From an uncultured Poribacteria bacterium (lineage in GTDB: Bacteria > Poribacteria > WGA-4E > WGA-3G), in NCBI GenBank assembly GCA_951813565.1, contig OX638351.1, positions 3,936,001 to 4,000,000 of the forward strand: a stretch of 64,000 nt of DNA. The letters are read 5' to 3'. The position numbers were made by a program, and so were the translations under genes. Positions 18,400 through 64,000 of this stretch are shown here, one piece after another. Numbering within the stretch: the stretch's first letter is position 1; each line of letters starts with the position of its first letter. A model generated the notes under the pieces. That model did not search any database, was not told where the DNA came from, and saw only the letters and a program-made list of their open reading frames with translations.

Positions 18400-18730
18400 T
18401 TTGTTGGAAAGAGGATGAAAAGGCGGGAATCTTGGGAGACGTCGGTTAGTGAGAATTACCTAATAGGTTCGCCGTTAGCGTTACATCTCGGATGCCTTAT
18501 ACGATCTTCACTACAGACAACCATTATTATGGTACGATTTATCATGGAAAATTCTTCATATAACATAAGTGGTTCACTCGCTAAACATTTATTACATAGA
18601 GAACGGGCGGAATAGATCCAAAAGTCCCTCCCCTCGCTTGCAGGAGGATAAAGGGTGTGAATTTAGGGATTTCAAAACATAGAATACTCAAATTACTTAC
18701 CGAGTAAACCATTTAGAAATGGTATAACAA

Positions 18731-18979
18731 TAACGTGAGTTTGATAAATCCCGTAGGGAATCAACACCGAATGCGCCTACGGCATTCGGTGGGGTAGAAC
18801 GGAAATGGACAATAAAAATAGACCCTAAAGAGAGGTTGTTGACCTATTTGAGGTCGATATTTCCGAAAAAATAAGTGAAATCCAACTCTTTAGGACTCTC
18901 AAGACGGTTGAATTGTTGGGTTTCGCTTCGCTCTACCCAACGGACATCTATATTCATTCTAATTATCAAGCTCACGTTA
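18731..18979. mobile_element. ~248-bp MITE family A (copy 1)
   Basis: TIR TAACGTGAGTTTGATAA; 4-bp flank duplication ACAA; close copy at 54028-54274. Confidence 0.8.
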
Positions 18980-52990: not shown

Positions 52991-53983
52991 CTAAGCGCGA
53001 ACCAGAAAAGGTTTATATGCCGCGTCTTCACCCGTTATCACACGTGCCAAATGCCTAACCTGAAGTTCAATGGAACGAAGGTAAGTCGTTTTTTCATTGC
53101 GGGTTGGGTGCTGAAATGTTTGTTGCATCCGTCCATAATACCCTGTAAGGAATCGGTCTAATGCTTTCTTCGTAAAGCGAATGCCTTTGTTGGTCCGCTC
53201 AAAATCTGCTGGTTTTATGCGGTTATTATTAACGAGTGTAAGGACATAACCATCCACAATAATTTGGCGGAATTCCTCCATCAGATCCGAGGCTAATGCG
53301 GCATGCCCATGCTTGGGTTGGTGAAAATAACCACAGTAGGGATCGAATCCAACGACATTGATAAATGTGTATACGTGATTATGTAGAAGTGTATAACCGA
53401 GTGAAAGCATGGCGTTAATTGGGTCTGGCGGTGGACGAAATTGGCGGGTTGTAAAGCCCCAATCGTGTGCCAGAAATTGCCGGAATGCGCGATAATGCGC
53501 AGCAGCACCAACGCCTTCGTATCCAAGAAGTGATTCCAAATTATCAGCTCGTTCAAGCTTCTCTAAGGTCTGGCGTGCTGAATGAATTGCCGAATTTACA
53601 TCTGCATTTTTGGTGCGCTGCCGTTGAGCGAACCGGATAGCGTTCATGAGTTTACCACGGACGAAACATTTCGCTAATGCAAGGCACCGCAGCGGATTCT
53701 CAGCAACAGCGTACTGCTGCTTGCGAATAAGAGTATCTTTGGCATAAGGTGGTTGTAATTTGCCTTTGTATTTGCCCTGTGTAGAAAGGAAAGAGACCGG
53801 GATATTTTTATGGAGCAAGTATCCCATCGTTTGCGTTGTGATATGTCCGTTGCCGAAAATGACAACTTCGTCAAGTTGAGCAATTGGGATTTCCTGTAGA
53901 ATTTCTCGATCTTTTTTTACGACGATCTGGTTTCCAGATTTATGGAGAACTGCTCCTTGTTGGGTGATGTAGAGAATTGCCAT
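52991..53983 (-). CDS. cas1: CRISPR-associated integrase Cas1
   Basis: MAILYITQQG start after AGGAGG; GYEG, RPPPDPINAMLSLGY, H...LASDLMEEFR. Confidence 0.96.
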   Translation of the reverse strand: MAILYITQQGAVLHKSGNQIVVKKDREILQEIPIAQLDEVVIFGNGHITTQTMGYLLHKNIPVSFLSTQGKYKGKLQPPYAKDTLIRKQQYAVAENPLRCLALAKCFVRGKLMNAIRFAQRQRTKNADVNSAIHSARQTLEKLERADNLESLLGYEGVGAAAHYRAFRQFLAHDWGFTTRQFRPPPDPINAMLSLGYTLLHNHVYTFINVVGFDPYCGYFHQPKHGHAALASDLMEEFRQIIVDGYVLTLVNNNRIKPADFERTNKGIRFTKKALDRFLTGYYGRMQQTFQHPTRNEKTTYLRSIELQVRHLARVITGEDAAYKPFLVRA

Positions 53984-54027
53984 CTTGTCCCTCCTATGTG
54001 AGTTTATGGTTTTGCCCAGTTTATTTA

Positions 54028-54274
54028 TAACGTGAGTTTGATAAATCCCGTAGGGAATCAACACCGAATGCGCCTACGGCATTCGGTAGGGTAGAACGGA
54101 AATGGGCAATAAAAAACAGCCTCTAAAGAGAGGTTGTTGACCCATTTGAGGTCTACATTTCTGAAAAAATAAGTGAAACCCAACTCTTTAGAACTCTCAA
54201 GACGGTTGAATTGTTGGGTTTCGCTTCGCTCTACCCAACGGACTATATTCAATTTAATTATCAAACTCACGTTA
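54028..54274. mobile_element. MITE family A (copy 2)
   Basis: close copy of 18731-18979 with TIRs. Confidence 0.8.
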
Positions 54275-56061: not shown

Positions 56062-56476
56062 TTAGAATCCTCCTTTTTTAATGGAACATACCATCTAACG
56101 TGTCTATTAGAAATAAGAGATGGGTTTGGAGTAAAGTGAAAAAGTTACGAGATTTTGACCTAACAAAATATAGAGGCATTACGAAGAAAAAGGATAGTAA
56201 TATTTAAAAATTTTGACATTTAGACAAATTTAGGGTATACTTTAATAAATACAAACGCGATTGAACGATTGATTGCTGATGGTGATTAAATTGTCCATGA
56301 ACACATAAGGCACCTTGCTTTTGGGTGTTTTTTGCGGGAAAATCGTGTTTGGTTCAGTGTTCATGCGGGTTTAGAGGGTTTTGGACGGAATTTGGGTATT
56401 AAAAAAATCCCAAAAATCTTCGCGTTTGGTTTTGGCTAATTTAGCCCGCACTGTGACAGGGTTTGGAAGGGGTGCG
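56062..56476 (+). promoter_or_regulatory. CRISPR leader with sigma70 promoter (TTGACA 56213, TATACT 56236)
   Basis: AT-rich non-coding DNA before the first perfect repeat; 17-bp promoter spacer. Confidence 0.75.
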
Positions 56477-59400
56477 GTTCGGAAAGCCTTTCCCGTTTGA
56501 AGGGAATTGAAACGCGGGCTTTAGCCGCCTTGACTAGGTTGTCATTGGGTTCGGAAAGCCTTTCCCGTTTGAAGGGAATTGAAACCAACCTTACCAAACC
56601 CGATTCTTAGGATTTGGCCTTCGTTCGGAAAGCCTTTCCCGTTTGAAGGGAATTGAAACTCATTGGTGGTTGTGACACCAAAGCCAACCTTCAACACGTT
56701 CGGAAAGCCTTTCCCGTTTGAAGGGAATTGAAACACAAACTCTTTTTTTTGGCTCTTACTCCTCCTCCCCGGTTCGGAAAGCCTTTCCCGTTTGAAGGGA
56801 ATTGAAACTACCCATACAGCCTAGAGTCGAAATCTGGAATAGGGCCGAGTTCGGAAAGCCTTTCCCGTTTGAAGGGAATTGAAACTGACTTACAGTCACG
56901 ATGTACGAATTTTCCTTGGGGAAAGTTCGGAAAGCCTTTCCCGTTTGAAGGGAATTGAAACCTCTTTTAATGCCTAAATGACTACAGCCATTCTTCTACC
57001 GTTCGGAAAGCCTTTCCCGTTTGAAGGGAATTGAAACACCTTAATGCACTTGACTTCGAAATTTTCTGCCCATGTTCGGAAAGCCTTTCCCGTTTGAAGG
57101 GAATTGAAACCTCTGGCTCTGGCTCAATCGGTGCATCATCTACCGTTCGGAAAGCCTTTCCCGTTTGAAGGGAATTGAAACTCATAGACCCCGATTGCTG
57201 GGAACAAGTGAGCGATCGCGTGTTCGGAAAGCCTTTCCCGTTTGAAGGGAATTGAAACAAATTTTGTCAGTGGTGGCCTTTTCGTCTCTCAAAAAAGTTC
57301 GGAAAGCCTTTCCCGTTTGAAGGGAATTGAAACTATCTGGAGCTCAATGCTCCGTAAGTCGTTTCCGGGTTCAGTTCGGAAAGCCTTTCCCGTTTGAAGG
57401 GAATTGAAACTCCTTTGATGTTCGGTGTTTGAAAAAACAATCTCCGTTCGGAAAGCCTTTCCCGTTTGAAGGGAATTGAAACATATACTCTTTTGAGCCA
57501 AGCCCTTCGTTTGGATTGTATAGTTCGGAAAGCCTTTCCCGTTTGAAGGGAATTGAAACCTTTCCTCTGTATCTTGTAATAACTCATTTCTGCGTTCGGA
57601 AAGCCTTTCCCGTTTGAAGGGAATTGAAACTTCGCGATACTGTCCGCTAAATCCAACATCACAATCAGTTCGGAAAGCCTTTCCCGTTTGAAGGGAATTG
57701 AAACATGATATTGAATTTCACTTCGGTCAATTTGCGACGAGTTCGGAAAGCCTTTCCCGTTTGAAGGGAATTGAAACGAAACCAGTTACGGAGCCATGCT
57801 ACCCCTAAAACTTGTTCGGAAAGCCTTTCCCGTTTGAAGGGAATTGAAACCCATTCTGCGGTCTCTACAATTTTAAATTTTATTTCGTTCGGAAAGCCTT
57901 TCCCGTTTGAAGGGAATTGAAACGCTTGCATACCCGGCGGTACCAAAGTTGTTGAATTGCGTTCGGAAAGCCTTTCCCGTTTGAAGGGAATTGAAACGGT
58001 TCACCGACAATAGCTATGGTGGTGCCATCAAACAGTTCGGAAAGCCTTTCCCGTTTGAAGGGAATTGAAACATGGTGGTGCCATCAAACAATTCTGCTGA
58101 GGCAGCTACGTTCGGAAAGCCTTTCCCGTTTGAAGGGAATTGAAACCAACGACCCTTACCGCTTTCACGGTGCCGTCTTTTTGTTCGGAAAGCCTTTCCC
58201 GTTTGAAGGGAATTGAAACATCACGACTGTAGTTCGATATTGCGTCGTCTACGTTCGTTCGGAAAGCCTTTCCCGTTTGAAGGGAATTGAAACGAGAAGA
58301 AACTATGGAAACGACTATTAGAGAAACGGTTCGGAAAGCCTTTCCCGTTTGAAGGGAATTGAAACGCAAATCATAATGAACACTATCATCAGGCCGGCAC
58401 ACAAAGTTCGGAAAGCCTTTCCCGTTTGAAGGGAATTGAAACACCTCCGTGATTTCGTGACCGACGATTACTCCATTTTTAGTTCGGAAAGCCTTTCCCG
58501 TTTGAAGGGAATTGAAACCTATAGTAACTGGTAAGGAGGCTGAGCCATTCAGCAGAAGTTCGGAAAGCCTTTCCCGTTTGAAGGGAATTGAAACTTTTCT
58601 CAGCCGTCTTTCCCAGCGCCGCTTGTTGTACGTTCGGAAAGCCTTTCCCGTTTGAAGGGAATTGAAACCGTTAAGATCAAGAGCGTAATTGTCGTTCTAA
58701 GTTTCAAGTTCGGAAAGCCTTTCCCGTTTGAAGGGAATTGAAACACTATTAAGTATCGGGGTGGGTGTGCGATTGTCTTAACTGTTCGGAAAGCCTTTCC
58801 CGTTTGAAGGGAATTGAAACACGATGGCGTCGTTAGAAGTGACTTCGTCCCCAAAACGTTCGGAAAGCCTTTCCCGTTTGAAGGGAATTGAAACTATTTG
58901 CCGACAGCTTTGCTAATACCTTCTTAGCTGACCTCGTTCGGAAAGCCTTTCCCGTTTGAAGGGAATTGAAACATTTCGTTAAGCACAGCCAAAATCAGTT
59001 CTCCTTTGGTTCGGAAAGCCTTTCCCGTTTGAAGGGAATTGAAACACACTACCATCCTAGAGCTGCCAGAGGTGTTCTCTGACTGGTTCGGAAAGCCTTT
59101 CCCGTTTGAAGGGAATTGAAACAAGAAACAATAAATTCGTATGCTGTCTTTCCCAGGCGTCGTTCGGAAAGCCTTTCCCGTTTGAAGGGAATTGAAACAA
59201 GCGTAAGTATCCATCTCTTCTCCTTATTATGTGCGTTCGGAAAGCCTTTCCCGTTTGAAGGGAATTGAAACACTTTTTCTGTCTTACCAACATTATATTT
59301 TCCTCCTGAGTTCGGAAAGCCTTTCCCGTTTGAAGGGAATTGAAACAAATCATTCTTGACACGATCACTAAGAGAGTTCTCGTTCGGAAAGCCTTTCCCG

Positions 59401-60457
59401 TTTGAAGGGAATTGAAACAATGACTGCAAGATAAGAGCAAATAACGCATTAACTCGTTCGGAAAGCCTTTCCCGTTTGAAGGGAATTGAAACGGGTTTTA
59501 TTAAACAATCACACCAACTATAGAAATCGTTCGGAAAGCCTTTCCCGTTTGAAGGGAATTGAAACCTACTCTTCATACTGGCCCAAGCCCAACACCGCTA
59601 GGATTGGTTCGGAAAGCCTTTCCCGTTTGAAGGGAATTGAAACGAATCAAAGAACCCGTCTCGGAACTCCGTCATTGGCGTTCGGAAAGCCTTTCCCGTT
59701 TGAAGGGAATTGAAACACGATAAATCGTATCGGGGTGGGTGTGTTGCGATTGTTCGGAAAGCCTTTCCCGTTTGAAGGGAATTGAAACAAAATCCAGAGC
59801 CGCAAAAAAAATGATAGTTGCCATGTTCGGAAAGCCTTTCCCGTTTGAAGGGAATTGAAACATTTGTAGTGACAACCTTCCCAAAACCAATCTTCAACAG
59901 TTCGGAAAGCCTTTCCCGTTTGAAGGGAATTGAAACAGAAACAAAAAAGAAGTCAGTAAAGTTGGATAAACAATGTTCGGAAAGCCTTTCCCGTTTGAAG
60001 GGAATTGAAACAGAAAATTCCCGGTGGCTACGGTTGCCTCTGCCCCAACGTGTTCGGAAAGCCTTTCCCGTTTGAAGGGAATTGAAACTCATGCGGCGGT
60101 CATACCGCCCGCACCGCCACCTTTGATCGTTCGGAAAGCCTTTCCCGTTTGAAGGGAATTGAAACAGCCATGTTTTCAGTGGCTAGCGAGGACAGAGTTT
60201 CGTTCGGAAAGCCTTTCCCGTTTGAAGGGAATTGAAACATGTGGCGGCCTTCACCATGACGTCATTTGTAGTGGTTCGGAAAGCCTTTCCCGTTTGAAGG
60301 GAATTGAAACCTACGACCATAGCGGTTGAACAACGCCATAATAAGTTCGGAAAGCCTTTCCCGTTTGAAGGGAATAGAAACTTGTAATCTCATCATCAAC
60401 ATATCTGTTTCAGTGACTTTGTTCGGAAAGCCTTTCCCGTTTGAAGGGAATTGATAA
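56477..60457 (+). CRISPR. CRISPR array, 54 repeats (37 bp GTTCGGAAAGCCTTTCCCGTTTGAAGGGAATTGAAAC), 53 spacers of 34-41 nt
   Basis: manual count; 3' ATTGAAAC handle and two degenerate distal repeats give + orientation. Confidence 0.98.
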
Positions 60458-60501: not shown

Positions 60502-61455
60502 TTGATGAAAATTGTTCTTGCTGGTCCCCCTCAATCTGGTAAAAGTTGCTTACGTGAGGGATTGAAGCAGGCTATTCTTGGACTCCAGCGTAACAATTCG
60601 GATATACCATATCCTTATGTAATCACAGCGTGTCCGGATGGTGAAGGAGCATGGTTTCAAGAAACCACGAAAAAATATCCCGAGGTTGCTAAAGCCTGCA
60701 AGGAAGCCTATAAAGGCAAATTCACGCCAAAATTTGTTAAGCTTGTTGCTAAGCATGTACGTAAATGTAAGCAAACCTTGACTATGGTGGACATCGGTGG
60801 ACTTATTAGTAAGGAAAATAAAAAGATATGCAAAGGAGCAACGCATATCGTAATTCTGGCTGGCAACGATTCGGAAAGCGGCGAATGTTGGGATGTCCGG
60901 ATAGCGGAATGGAGAGGATTCGCGAAAGCGTTGGATTTGACTGTGGTGGCAGAGATATTTTCTGATTACCACAGCAAAGCAGATGTTGTTGAAAACGTTG
61001 GCTCGGATAACATCCTCCGCGGAAGTGTTCATTATCTTAAAAGAGGAGTAGACATTGTGGATCGTCCAATGGTTCAGGCATTGGCTCGGCATATTCTTAC
61101 TATAGCGGGGTATCCGCTTACGGGCGAACCTTCTGCGGAATCATCGACCTACATCATTACCCGTGATAAAAACGGTATTTTGCGGGTTGGCTTCGGCACA
61201 CCAGGTGATAACACTCAAATTGTGAAGGATGCCGCTGTGCGTTTGGACGCTATGGAAGAAGCAGGCGAGTTAAGCGGTGGTGATTTACTCAAAATCAATG
61301 GTCCCGCATCATTGCCGGTCGCTATGTTCCTGGGGCATAGGTTGTCTGACCTGTTTGAGGTGATTGCATGCTTTGATCCGAGGATGGATCAGTACGTCAT
61401 CGCAATCAGTCGTAGTTCCGACTCTAAATATGCTGTTGGAAATGTAATTGATTAG
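60502..61455 (+). CDS. csx3: P-loop ATPase fused to Csx3/Crn3 ring nuclease
   Basis: Walker A GPPQSGKS, ACPDGEG.W; C-terminal ILRVGFG..N.QIVKDA, INGPASLPVA, FDPR. Confidence 0.85.
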   Translation: MMKIVLAGPPQSGKSCLREGLKQAILGLQRNNSDIPYPYVITACPDGEGAWFQETTKKYPEVAKACKEAYKGKFTPKFVKLVAKHVRKCKQTLTMVDIGGLISKENKKICKGATHIVILAGNDSESGECWDVRIAEWRGFAKALDLTVVAEIFSDYHSKADVVENVGSDNILRGSVHYLKRGVDIVDRPMVQALARHILTIAGYPLTGEPSAESSTYIITRDKNGILRVGFGTPGDNTQIVKDAAVRLDAMEEAGELSGGDLLKINGPASLPVAMFLGHRLSDLFEVIACFDPRMDQYVIAISRSSDSKYAVGNVID

Positions 61456-61736: not shown

Positions 61737-62012
61737 TTAAACGACAATTGTCTTAGGTTCCGACGTTACATCCCCGACAGCAGGCACTTCAATGCGTCCG
61801 GCGCAAGCATTACAAAGCGCGTAGTACCGCACTGAATCTTCTGAAGAATCGATAATATCCGCAACAGCATGTTTTAATTCCTCATACTGTTTTCGGTTCA
61901 GATGTGCTTCAAACACGCTGTATTGGACACGAGTACCGAATCCTTTAAGTGCTTTCGCAAGTTGACTCCGCCTTCGGTCATCCGGAATATCGTAAGAGAT
62001 AAGATAGAACAT
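61737..62012 (-). CDS. cas2: CRISPR-associated Cas2
   Basis: YLISYDI.DDRRR, RVQYSVFE, EDSVRYY.LC..C. Confidence 0.96.
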   Translation of the reverse strand: MFYLISYDIPDDRRRSQLAKALKGFGTRVQYSVFEAHLNRKQYEELKHAVADIIDSSEDSVRYYALCNACAGRIEVPAVGDVTSEPKTIVV

Positions 62013-62061
62013 CAAATTTCCCTCCATTGATTATGGCTGAATTAATCAGTTCCCACCATTT

Positions 62062-62372: not shown

Positions 62373-62461
62373 TACCAAATTACCCAAAATCGTAGGGGCG
62401 GGTCTCTGTGCCCGCCCGTGTTCTCGGCAGTGAAAACAATACAAAACTTGTTAATTTGGTA
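62373..62461. mobile_element. 89-bp REP-carrying MITE (copy 2)
   Basis: TIRs, TSD TAA; supplies the cas6 stop codon. Confidence 0.9.
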
Positions 62462-63413
62462 TAATGCGATACTGTCCGTGTCCGAATGCTGTGTGATGCC
62501 CGATGTGTAAATACTCGCCAAGATAGATGAACGGCAGGAACGGTGTCAACTCACCCGTAAAGCGAACCTTCCCGATAAACCCATCCATCGGAATAGAACT
62601 CTCTGCACGATAAGAGTAACGGTTGGACTTGAGCCAGCGGAAACGGGATTCGTGTGTAATAGCACGTGCAGCATCAATCAATGCATGTGCGTCCACATCT
62701 AAATCCTCTCTACAATGAAAATAACTCAAAAAACGGATACGTCTGAGAAGGTTGCGGATAAGATGTTCAAATGTTAACGCGCTTGTCCATCGACCATCAA
62801 CCTTTATACTGGTCGGTGTGAGAAATTCGAGTTCAATTGCATCGCGGTTCTGAGGTGTGCCTTCCAATACATCTGCCAACCCAAGAATAATGCCATCATC
62901 AGCGAGCATCTCAGTTTCTGCGGTGTAAATCGTCTGGCTGTTAGGGCTGCCATGCACTGAGAGGCTTTCGATCTTGTCAAGAAGACACTGCCCGCGCTTG
63001 TCTCGTATACCGATGCGCCGTTTACCTATCTCACGGAAGGTAAACGCTATCCACGGCAACAGGTTGATCGCCTCTCCAATGAGTGTCATACTGCAGACGA
63101 AGGTGTCGTCTGGTGCAAAGTCTGTTTTCTCGGTGTGCGGCGGTTGTAGGATGAACGGATGCGGCGCATAGGGCTGTCCGCGTAGGATGGGACTGTCGGG
63201 TGGAACTGGTGTTTCAAAGCATTTGGAATAGATACACCGATTTGGATGTTGACACTTTTGTTCACACGTTTGCGTTTCTCCGATGCATGCGATGTGGCGG
63301 AGCAGGTATCCGAATCGACTGCGGAAGATGTTGCCTTTGTAGCGTGACATCTTCAGTGGTTCTTGGGCGGTATAGGTGAAGCGGTAGCGGGCAAAGCGGA
63401 AGTTTTTGAGCAT
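62451..63413 (-). CDS. cas6: CRISPR RNA processing endoribonuclease Cas6
   Basis: C-terminal G-rich loop GEYLHIGHHTAFGHG, FLTP, Cys cluster. Confidence 0.9.
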   Translation of the reverse strand: MLKNFRFARYRFTYTAQEPLKMSRYKGNIFRSRFGYLLRHIACIGETQTCEQKCQHPNRCIYSKCFETPVPPDSPILRGQPYAPHPFILQPPHTEKTDFAPDDTFVCSMTLIGEAINLLPWIAFTFREIGKRRIGIRDKRGQCLLDKIESLSVHGSPNSQTIYTAETEMLADDGIILGLADVLEGTPQNRDAIELEFLTPTSIKVDGRWTSALTFEHLIRNLLRRIRFLSYFHCREDLDVDAHALIDAARAITHESRFRWLKSNRYSYRAESSIPMDGFIGKVRFTGELTPFLPFIYLGEYLHIGHHTAFGHGQYRIIPN

Positions 63414-64000
63414 TATGGAAGTGGCGCGATGAATTGATGTTGTTTGTTAAAGTCGTCAGCATCAATACATGCAATCTTTTGTGCCTTCTTGAATTGTTCT
63501 TCAACAGTTGTTTTAAAGGCTTTGAATTCTTTGCTACTGATCATACGCATACCATGTGCGTAGATACTTTGATTCCTCGTTCCCACTTGATTTTGAAACT
63601 TTCCCCAGTCCAAGCCTTGAACAATTTTATCGTCGAGAGCGTGTAATAAAAGGTATCCGTCAACCAATCCAATGGAGGCAGGAAGAGCAGATCTATCTGT
63701 GCGTTGGAAAACTTCCTTCAATTTAGCCGCATACAGATTGAAAATTTCACCCTCATCAATATTAGAATAATTCGGTTTACGAGTATCAATATTGTACCCT
63801 GCAAGACGGTGTTGTTCGATCCACTCAAGAAGCCGATAGAGAATCAGGCAGGCGGTGTTGAGTTTTCCTTGTGCTTCTCGACGGAGTGCATTGTGATAGA
63901 GCATAAACGCAAAGTGAAACCCATTAGGAGCATTGAGTGCCAGTTTTTCATTTTTGAGAAACATCAGTAAAGCTTCCAGTGCTTTTATGTGTTTTTCAAT
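63413..64000 (-). CDS. partial CRISPR accessory effector, TIGR02710/Csm6-like CARF-HEPN (5' end outside window)
   Basis: LYRLLE.I.Q..L and RNQSIYAHG (HEPN R-x-H motif); frame stays open to the window edge. Confidence 0.7.
   Translation of the reverse strand: MEKHIKALEALLMFLKNEKLALNAPNGFHFAFMLYHNALRREAQGKLNTACLILYRLLEWIEQHRLAGYNIDTRKPNYSNIDEGEIFNLYAAKLKEVFQRTDRSALPASIGLVDGYLLLHALDDKIVQGLDWGKFQNQVGTRNQSIYAHGMRMISSKEFKAFKTTVEEQFKKAQKIACIDADDFNKQHQFIAPLP

What the first reader, a model, noticed from the sequence alone, without database searches (positions are those of the whole stretch)
56514..60273. Spacers overlap and tile the same target genes
Seen: sp3 and sp1 share 7 nt (TCATTGG) and join to VLKVGFGVTTTNDNLVKAAKAR. 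sp46 and sp51 share 10 nt (ATTTGTAGTG) and join to LKIGFGKVVTTNDVMVKAAT. Adjacent sp32 and sp33 could abut in frame (FGDEVTSNDAIV|RSAKKVLAKLSAN). Adjacent sp21 and sp22 (57998-58109) share 19 nt and give VAASAELFDGTTIAIVGEP. Inference: acquisition is focused on a few short, abundant transcripts, as expected for RT-assisted RNA-derived acquisition or for a priming-like process in a type III system.
Basis: partly seen in the sequence, partly recalled or inferred. Interest (0 to 1): 0.75.

Follow-up and report, generated by a model that had tools for sequence, protein, structure and literature searches.

The report
CRISPR memory of parasite's alarm-silencing mRNA
About a quarter of this sponge bacterium's RNA-targeting CRISPR memories point at one small foreign gene that destroys the CRISPR alarm signal, and the closest copy of that gene belongs to an ultra-small parasitic bacterium rather than a virus, suggesting the parasite's message gets inside its host.

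Summary
The overlaps are real, but they are not tiles of one gene. 12-13 of 53 spacers in this RT+Cas1, type III-D array (probably Poribacteria) are antisense to at least four alleles of a foreign csx3 (Crn3 ring nuclease) gene. Other arrays give 3 of 72 and 2 of 323. The best protospacer source is a metagenome contig (L044; sp2 33/37, sp46 31/38, sp1 29/35 nt), which is syntenic with a Patescibacteria locus (flanking proteins 85-86% identical). There, csx3 is a strongly promoted, hyper-folded (z -12.9), Shine-Dalgarno-led, hammerhead-terminated transcript. This layout recurs in Patescibacteria, and 0 of 10 such genomes tested carry type III genes. A second Poribacteria genus without csx3 also holds antisense csx3 spacers. 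Best reading: the epibiont's csx3 RNA is present in the host cytoplasm, works as an anti-CRISPR, and the host records and targets it. Not shown: exact protospacers, RT dependence, enzyme activity, and whether mRNA or DNA crosses. Phage-borne csx3 exists and remains a rival. The scan noted the cassette and a phage csx3 earlier on other DNA; the host-spacer link was not found in those look-ups.

The parts
52991..54064 (-). cas1
   Evidence: PF01867 E 2e-93; TIGR00287
54664..56061 (-). Stand-alone CRISPR-associated reverse transcriptase with YADD; single copy in genome; beside cas1 also in 5 related loci
   Evidence: PF00078, TIGR04416 below cut-off
56062..56476 (+). Intergenic AT-rich region, putative leader (inferred); array read on + strand
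   Evidence: repeat ends in the usual 8-nt tag and degenerate repeats lie at the far end
56477..60457 (+). CRISPR array, 54 repeats, 53 spacers
56514..56548 (+). sp1, antisense to csx3; 29/35 nt to L044
56586..56622 (+). sp2, antisense to csx3; 33/37 nt to L044
56660..56697 (+). sp3, antisense to csx3; 7-nt overlap with sp1
56886..56924 (+). sp6, antisense to csx3 C-terminal part; 27/39 nt to L044
57182..57221 (+). sp10, antisense to csx3 His-containing helix; 29/40 nt to Patescibacteria L056
57560..57593 (+). sp15, antisense to a csx3-like start region (weaker, p 0.001)
57998..58109 (+). sp21 and sp22, adjacent spacers sharing 19 nt; target not identified
58519..58557 (+). sp28, antisense to the most conserved csx3 motif
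58745..58783 (+). sp31, csx3-like C-terminal match (uncertain); shares 17 nt with sp44
58821..58935 (+). sp32 and sp33, adjacent spacers that abut in frame on a csx3 allele
59717..59751 (+). sp44, homologue of sp31; its best profile hit is on the sense strand and weak
59862..59899 (+). sp46, antisense to csx3; 31/38 nt to L044
60239..60273 (+). sp51, antisense to csx3; 27/35 nt to L044; 10-nt overlap with sp46
60502..61455 (+). Host's own P-loop NTPase + Csx3 fusion; not the target (15-22 matching nt of 34-41, background level)
61737..62027 (-). cas2
62451..63413 (-). cas6
63413..64000 (-). 3' part of TIGR02710 CARF-HEPN effector. The III-D operon (Csx19, Csx7 x2, Csx10, Cas10 with GGDD) continues beyond the window at G000:C1 4000890-4009690

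Best explanation
The array is an RNA-level immune record of a Patescibacteria (CPR) epibiont. Some Patescibacteria carry a cassette that makes a strongly promoted, densely base-paired, hammerhead-trimmed mRNA for a Csx3/Crn3-type ring nuclease. That RNA (delivered as RNA, or made from transferred DNA) is present in the host cytoplasm, where the enzyme would destroy the cyclic oligoadenylate alarm made by Cas10 and so silence the CARF-HEPN effector. The host's RT+Cas1+Cas2 samples this abundant RNA, and antisense spacers are retained because they let the III-D complex cut the message and fire before the alarm is quenched. SHOWN: spacer-to-csx3 match, orientation, non-self origin, Patescibacteria context of the nearest copy, cassette anatomy. 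INFERRED: abundance, entry into the host, ring-nuclease activity, RT dependence, benefit.
For: (1) 12 of 53 spacers exceed the 99th null percentile of a Csx3 profile, 11 of them antisense; controls give 3 of 72 (own other arrays) and 2 of 323 (related arrays). Hits run from sp1 to sp51. (2) A search seeded with spacer peptides found P0286; its contig L044 matches sp2 33/37, sp46 31/38, sp1 29/35 and sp51 27/35 nt, against at most 26, 22, 22 and 21 in any other group. Mismatches of 6 spacers fall 32/75 at codon position 3 and 5/74 at position 2. (3) L044 is syntenic with L056 of a ~0.6-Mb Patescibacteria genome: TrmB 86%, P-loop 85% aa, shared promoter and UTRs. The TrmB's nearest Atlas clusters are Minisyncoccota. 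In L087 the cassette lies beside tsf/rpsB-like genes. L044's assembly prefix is also listed for P0349, a close relative of the host's own fusion protein. (4) P0286 folds like AfCsx3 (6YUD, TM 0.59, E 3e-4). (5) The transcript folds at z -12.9. csx3 coding regions have median z -4.7 in 30 CPR loci (17 below -4), against -0.3 in 27 cyanobacterial and 7 Poribacteria loci (none below -4); 27 flanking CPR genes give -0.4. (6) A hammerhead core lies downstream in 9 of 30 CPR loci and 0 of 27 cyanobacterial loci; 97.6% of cells pair and 12 of 15 pairs show two-sided changes. (7) 0 of 10 csx3-bearing CPR genomes have RAMP genes, so the enzyme has no own type III system to reset. (8) An SD motif precedes 26 of 31 CPR csx3 genes and 19 of 25 other cassette ORFs, but only 21 of 136 other CPR ORFs. 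L073's genome lacks the anti-SD yet its csx3 has a strong SD. (9) G1098, another genus with no csx3 gene, has one strong antisense csx3 spacer (score 32.2, 1 of 14) and one moderate one (15.7, 1 of 76, in its RT array).
Against: No exact protospacer was found. The best is 89%, and for sp3, sp6, sp10, sp28, sp32 and sp33 the nucleotide match does not separate CPR from other groups. Only one sponge-derived cassette (L044, 3.75 kb, unbinned) is in hand. csx3 is rare in Patescibacteria (7 of 400 sampled) and a recombinase-like ORF lies upstream in L056, so the island may be mobile. Phage contigs also carry stand-alone csx3 (7 distinct full-length loci), two of them strongly folded (z -13.6 and -7.2), and 37 viral loci carry the same hammerhead core. 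6 of 8 CPR genomes with a 16S 3' end keep the anti-SD, and L087 lacks both anti-SD and csx3 SD, so SD enrichment may only mark high expression in the parasite. Spacers themselves are not enriched in hairpins (p 0.19). RT-linked arrays of five relatives show no csx3 focus. P0286 has Lys for Arg71 and the His60 equivalent shifted by one. The CPR genomes tested for RAMPs are incomplete MAGs.
Confidence: 0.55

Rival explanations
1. The targets are phage-borne (or plasmid-borne) csx3 anti-CRISPR genes of Poribacteria viruses, expressed early and strongly. L044 is only the nearest sequenced homologue, perhaps exchanged with those phages.
For: Stand-alone csx3 occurs on IMG/VR contigs with no cas genes recognised by eye in the ORF lists within 6 kb. 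Two are hyper-folded. Hammerheads occur in viral contigs. It needs no new biology for RNA entry.
Against: No viral contig encodes a close P0286 relative. Viral copies match sp1, sp2, sp46 and sp51 at 19-21 nt against 27-33 for L044. 0 of 37 viral hammerhead loci have csx3 within 1.5 kb. L044's other genes are Patescibacteria-like. No match in 50,697 GenBank phages. Sponge phages are poorly sampled, so these blanks are weak.
Confidence: 0.2
2. The source is Patescibacteria, but the RNA or DNA enters passively (parasite lysis, cytoplasmic contact, DNA uptake) and has no anti-CRISPR role in the host. The focus reflects abundance, stability or hairpin preference of the adaptation machinery.
For: Type III-A Cas1-Cas2 without RT prefers hairpin-forming DNA (PMC8860593, passages). 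Spacers from foreign prokaryotic genomes are common and may be undirected (PMC12612501, passages). Most CPR genomes tested keep an anti-SD and could translate the message themselves.
Against: RT-Cas1 inserts in both orientations (PMC5576922, passages), yet 11 of 12 profile hits are antisense, which implies selection for working crRNAs. Other cassette or housekeeping genes were not hit. A ring nuclease is useless in a cell without type III genes unless it acts on another signal.
Confidence: 0.15
3. The spacers defend against horizontal acquisition of CRISPR-linked csx3 genes of other sponge symbionts (Poribacteria, Entotheonella), or are relics of self-targeting of older own alleles.
For: Csx3 occurs in type III loci of other Poribacteria. 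sp6 matches such genes 28/39, as well as it matches L044.
Against: Own gene matches at background level. L044 groups with CPR copies (SH-aLRT 96, quick tree, with two long-branch rows) apart from the Poribacteria clade that holds the own gene. The distinctive N-terminal motif of sp1, sp2, sp46 and sp51 is in L044 only.
Confidence: 0.07

Closest known systems
Crn3/Csx3 ring nuclease of Archaeoglobus fulgidus (PDB 6YUD; PMC7371418, passages)
   Same: Target protein has PF09620 and the same fold; H57, D69 and H80 equivalents kept.
   Different: Not in a CRISPR locus; lies in a Patescibacteria cassette; R71 is Lys and H60 is shifted by one; activity untested.
AcrIII-1 viral ring nuclease; survey of ring nucleases in 28,114 phages (PMC12409355, passages)
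   Same: Invader-encoded enzyme that would destroy cA4 to defeat type III immunity.
   Different: Different fold. That survey lists AcrIII-1, Csx20 and Csx16 in phages, not Crn3 (supplement not read). Here the nearest carrier is a cellular parasite.
Host CRISPR spacers against episymbionts: Altiarchaeum type I-B versus its DPANN partner (Esser 2023, seen only as cited in PMC12612501 and in the preprint); Ca. Phosphoribacter type III-E versus Saccharimonadia (bioRxiv 10.64898/2026.09.16.751625, passages)
   Same: Host array matches a symbiont chromosome; in the preprint an RNA-targeting system is involved.
   Different: Those targets are spread over the genome or are two ORFs of unknown function. 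Here about a quarter of an RT-linked array hits one counter-defence gene family, antisense, across at least four alleles.
RT-Cas1 type III adaptation (Marinomonas mediterranea, PMC5576922; Arthrospira survey, PMC5513706; passages)
   Same: RT beside cas1 in a type III locus; expected bias to abundant transcripts.
   Different: RT is a separate gene. Natural sources of such spacers were described as enigmatic; here a natural source family is identified.
Type III hammerhead ribozyme (Rfam RF00008)
   Same: Core, three stems and covariation present.
   Different: L044 copy scores below the gathering cut-off (40.7 versus 48.5); it sits in the 3' UTR of a bacterial mRNA cassette.

Membership tests
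Type III-D CRISPR-Cas with RT adaptation (host locus) | Cas10 with GGDD cyclase motif, Csx10, Csx19, Cas7-type RAMPs | tested here: met
Type III-D CRISPR-Cas with RT adaptation (host locus) | RT with YADD next to cas1, cas2 present | tested here: met
Type III-D CRISPR-Cas with RT adaptation (host locus) | Spacers acquired from RNA in an RT-dependent way | not testable with these tools
   needs an intron-reporter assay
Type III-D CRISPR-Cas with RT adaptation (host locus) | crRNA antisense to target with no anti-tag pairing at the 3' flank | tested here: met
   11 of 12 hits antisense; flanks in L044 match the anti-tag at 1-4 of 8 positions (homologous target, not the exact one)
Crn3/Csx3 (target P0286) | PF09620 and Csx3 fold | tested here: met
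Crn3/Csx3 (target P0286) | Catalytic residues H57, H60, D69, R71, H80 | tested here: inconclusive
   H57, D69 and H80 align; a His lies one position after H60; R71 is Lys; profile alignment is weak (E 0.06)
Crn3/Csx3 (target P0286) | Mn-dependent cA4 cleavage | not testable with these tools
   biochemistry needed
Anti-CRISPR ring nuclease (works like AcrIII-1) | Encoded by an invader that lacks its own type III system | tested here: met
   0 of 10 csx3-bearing CPR MAGs have PF03787; MAGs incomplete
Anti-CRISPR ring nuclease (works like AcrIII-1) | DUF1874 fold (family membership) | tested here: not met
   fold is Csx3, so not a member of AcrIII-1
Anti-CRISPR ring nuclease (works like AcrIII-1) | Abolishes type III immunity in vivo | not testable with these tools
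   none
Hammerhead ribozyme type III | Conserved core, three stems, NUH triplet, covariation | tested here: met
Hammerhead ribozyme type III | Self-cleavage | not testable with these tools
   none
Patescibacteria origin of L044 | Genes and synteny shared with a Patescibacteria genome | tested here: met
Patescibacteria origin of L044 | Marker genes on the same contig | tested here: inconclusive
   the 3.75-kb contig has none; other cassette loci do (L087)
Primed adaptation | New spacers clustered near an existing target on the same molecule | tested here: inconclusive
   two adjacent pairs overlap or abut, but most hits are different alleles

The most novel reading that the evidence does not exclude
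Patescibacteria deliver 'armoured' mRNAs into the host bacterium to be translated by host ribosomes: folded end to end, capped by long hairpins and a pseudoknot, trimmed by hammerheads, and carrying Shine-Dalgarno sites their own genes do not use. One such mRNA effector encodes an anti-CRISPR ring nuclease, and RT-Cas1 type III systems act as immunity against these cell-to-cell mRNAs, which would explain part of their untraceable spacers.
Probability: 0.35. Interest if true: 0.97.

Novelty: categorically new. Interest (0 to 1): 0.86.

Why it matters
If true, a cellular parasite uses an anti-CRISPR against another bacterium, and its RNA is inside the host cell. How Patescibacteria manipulate hosts is largely unknown. 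It names a natural source for RT-linked spacers, which were reported as enigmatic (PMC5513706), and suggests why they go untraced: the target is a tiny, fast-diverging gene found only by translating spacers. It gives a purpose for the hammerhead-separated, hyper-folded CPR cassettes, a host prediction (Poribacteria) for a sponge Patescibacterium, and a general method: profile-search translated spacers for counter-defence genes. The ingredients (spacers against episymbionts, invader ring nucleases) are known; their combination was not found in the searches made. Even the phage rival would be a host array counter-targeting a Crn3-type anti-CRISPR.

Tried and rejected
Self-targeting: no spacer matches the own genome beyond 14-22-nt chance hits. 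Viral collection with the host Csx3 domain and with P0286: no relative. GenBank phages: no match. Whole array against 401 genomes of G056's order: 18 genomes with hits at E 0.001-0.01, read as chance; only 2 candidates per genome were scored. Closer P0286 relatives carrying the other alleles: none among 44 candidates, next best 60%. Assigning the other ~40 spacers to cassette ORFs or UTRs: nothing beyond chance. Spacer-level hairpin enrichment: not significant. Sequencing runs: no RNA holder listed. Contigs laid on the array showed array variants but no protospacer contig among the rows displayed (24 of 78 loose ends, 32 of 970 pieces). Csx3 in the host genus: only G000 of 40. Further arrays: 81 spacers in L209, L211 and L212 gave 1 weak hit; 145 spacers beside csx3 loci gave 4 hits, 3 of them in L071. 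The hammerhead regex was faulty (missed L044) and was redone. In one search the hammerhead locating step failed for many rows; only its Csx3 profile search (0 of 37) is used. The tree is the quick version, 100 columns, mostly unresolved. Complex prediction was not used. Supplements were not read: the Hoikkala phage ring-nuclease table, and the preprint's protospacer tables (closed), which could show whether its targets are cassette genes.
Full report
OBSERVATION. The window holds a 53-spacer array at 56477-60457. Upstream are a stand-alone RT with YADD and cas1; downstream are a P-loop+Csx3 fusion, cas2, cas6 and a TIGR02710 CARF-HEPN effector. Beyond the window lies a type III-D operon whose Cas10 keeps GGDD. 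The host is probably Poribacteria: the closest named homologue of its Csx3 domain (84%) is so labelled, and one run holding a small share of the stretch is a sponge metagenome. One 7-nt overlap alone is common by chance (383 of 1000 shuffles), but four of 7 nt or more (2 of 1000) and two of 10 nt or more (0 of 1000) are not.

WHAT THE SPACERS HIT. Antisense translations resembled the Csx3 domain of the neighbouring gene. With a profile of 173 Csx3 homologues, 12 of 53 spacers exceed the 99th percentile of 2256 shuffled spacers, and 11 are antisense. The genome's two other arrays give 3 of 72 and related arrays of the genus 2 of 323 (first pass). Hits cover the protein from start to C-terminus and the array from sp1 to sp51. 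The sp1/sp3 and sp51/sp46 joins score far above null, and sp33 is the best of 52 partners for sp32; sp21/sp22 could not be assigned. Four spacer sets cover the same residues with different sequences, so at least four alleles were met. The own gene is not the target.

THE SOURCE. An alignment seeded with spacer peptides returned P0286, which matches sp1, sp2, sp46 and sp51 at 10/11, 11/12, 11/12 and 8/11 residues. Its 3750-bp contig L044 matches sp2 33/37, sp46 31/38, sp1 29/35, sp51 27/35, sp6 27/39, sp28 25/39 and sp32 24/37 nt, all antisense, with mismatches mostly at third codon positions. L044 also encodes a P-loop NTPase of the same family as the host fusion's N-terminus and a TrmB regulator whose nearest Atlas clusters are Minisyncoccota, i.e. 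Patescibacteria. Of 80 GTDB loci kept from 111, I labelled 30 CPR, 27 cyanobacterial and 7 Poribacteria by title. L056, from a ~0.6-Mb genome, is syntenic with L044 (TrmB 86%, P-loop 85% aa; promoter and UTRs alignable). In a quick tree L044 groups with L046, L056 and L049 (support 96, with two long-branch rows), apart from the Poribacteria clade. The AlphaFold model (pLDDT 94) matches A. fulgidus Csx3 best, with partial conservation of catalytic residues (residues from PMC7371418, passages).

ANATOMY OF THE TARGET TRANSCRIPT. In L044 csx3 follows a duplicated promoter matching 11 of 12 consensus bases and is followed by a type III hammerhead (E 1e-6, below gathering) and a terminator. The 646-nt unit folds at z -12.9, with long hairpins at both ends; an H-type pseudoknot before the ribosome site is read by eye from the sequence. 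This is a group trait. csx3 coding regions fold at median z -4.7 in 30 CPR loci against -0.3 in cyanobacteria and Poribacteria. Other cassette ORFs give -3.2 (n=13, chosen by position and GC) against -0.4 for 27 flanking genes, including N-terminally extended csx3 paralogues in the same genomes. Hammerhead cores follow csx3 in 9 of 30 CPR and 0 of 27 cyanobacterial loci and covary (14 hand-picked copies). SD motifs precede 26 of 31 CPR csx3 genes and 19 of 25 cassette ORFs but 21 of 136 other ORFs (starts taken at the first ATG, so approximate). Of 8 such genomes with a readable 16S 3' end, 6 keep the anti-SD. L073 lacks it but has a strong csx3 SD; L087 lacks both. Anti-SD loss in about half of Parcubacteria is published (PMC9297842, passages). 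None of 10 csx3-bearing CPR MAGs has RAMP genes. csx3 is in 7 of 400 sampled Patescibacteria.

REPLICATION IN OTHER HOSTS. Searching 176 genomes of the host phylum with the L044 transcript found, besides G000, one hit inside an array: G1098, another genus. That 45-nt spacer is antisense to the core csx3 motif (score 32.2; 1 of 14 parsed spacers beside a III-A operon). G1098's RT-linked array has one more at 15.7 (1 of 76), and the genome has no csx3 gene. These spacers fall in conserved motifs and do not by themselves point to CPR. A Methanoregula array beside csx3 has one antisense csx3-like spacer, but it matches its own gene nearly as well. RT-linked arrays of five other relatives show no focus.

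MECHANISM. Type III crRNAs work only on RNA in the same cell, and RT-Cas1 inserts in both orientations (PMC5576922, passages). A 310-nt gene taking about a quarter of an array, almost all antisense, over many alleles and the array's whole history, is best explained by an abundant foreign transcript in the host cytoplasm whose targeting is selected. A ring nuclease in a parasite without type III genes makes sense if it acts on the host's alarm. Dense folding, terminal hairpins and a ribozyme-made end would plausibly protect a message from single-strand RNases and from crRNA pairing (inference). Whether RNA or DNA crosses is open; secretion systems and effector clusters are described for Saccharimonadia (PMC12592800, passages). 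I give 0.55 to the Patescibacteria anti-CRISPR reading and 0.35 to its boldest form, mRNA delivery for host translation. The rivals are phage-borne csx3 (0.2; such genes exist), passive sampling (0.15) and symbiont or self csx3 (0.07).

KNOWN WORK. A survey of 28,114 phages lists no Crn3 (PMC12409355, passages). Host spacers against episymbionts are known (passages). Searches for Patescibacteria+Csx3 (0 papers), Patescibacteria+hammerhead+ribozyme (1, unrelated by listing) and CPR bacteria+ring nuclease (1, on archaeal viruses by listing), showed no report of this link. PMC13739734 and PMC13059738 (passages) did not show it either. The library lacks most subscription papers. Earlier scan notes describe the CPR cassette (seen after I had found it) and a cyanophage csx3; look-ups for the host-spacer link returned nothing.

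VERDICT. Observation confirmed; interpretation partly supported and extended. Interest 0.86.

Noticed in passing
window 61147-61455: The host's own Csx3 domain has Asp and Arg where P0286 has its second and third conserved His, so it may be catalytically impaired. Only G000 of 40 genus genomes has Csx3.
   Followed up: partly
window 58745-58783 and 59717-59751: sp31 and sp44 share 17 internal nt: two alleles of one target, csx3 C-terminus or another gene.
   Followed up: partly
window 57998-58109; L029 array spacers 5 and 6: Adjacent spacers overlapping by 19-20 nt occur in two RT-linked arrays, and sp32/sp33 abut with no gap, suggesting serial capture from one molecule.
   Followed up: partly
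L056 2260-2607, L065 5600-5953, L080 2847-3251, L044 770-1561: CPR genomes carry a second, AT-rich, unfolded csx3 and a P-loop NTPase with charged N-terminal extensions beside the folded cassette; possibly a protein-secreted version of the same functions.
   Followed up: partly
L125 5001-5252, L127 5001-5282: Two large phage contigs have hyper-folded csx3 genes (z -13.6, -7.2).
   Followed up: no
L044 3087-3132: 12 of 32 listed weak BLAST hits in Poribacteria-phylum genomes fall on the cassette's ribosome-binding and start region (E 0.001-0.08, A-rich, no control).
   Followed up: no
L071 8362-8393: A Methanoregula array beside csx3, P-loop and Csx16-like genes (the last named by eye) has a csx3-like antisense spacer; methanogens are Patescibacteria hosts (recalled).
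   Followed up: partly
window 56477-60457 in runs X1-X4: Population contigs show many further spacers absent from this assembly (78 loose-end rows): a very diverse array.
   Followed up: no
window 54027-54243 and 18730-18945: A ~215-nt repeated palindromic element sits between RT and cas1 and elsewhere in the window (D8 and D13).
   Followed up: no
G000:C1 1198126-1201310 and 2830672-2832420: Two other CRISPR arrays with 30-nt repeats (47 and 25 spacers), the first beside cas1 and Csm-like genes, the second with no cas genes seen nearby.
   Followed up: partly
L173, L175, L203-L207: Phage contigs with several hammerhead cores between short genes.
   Followed up: no
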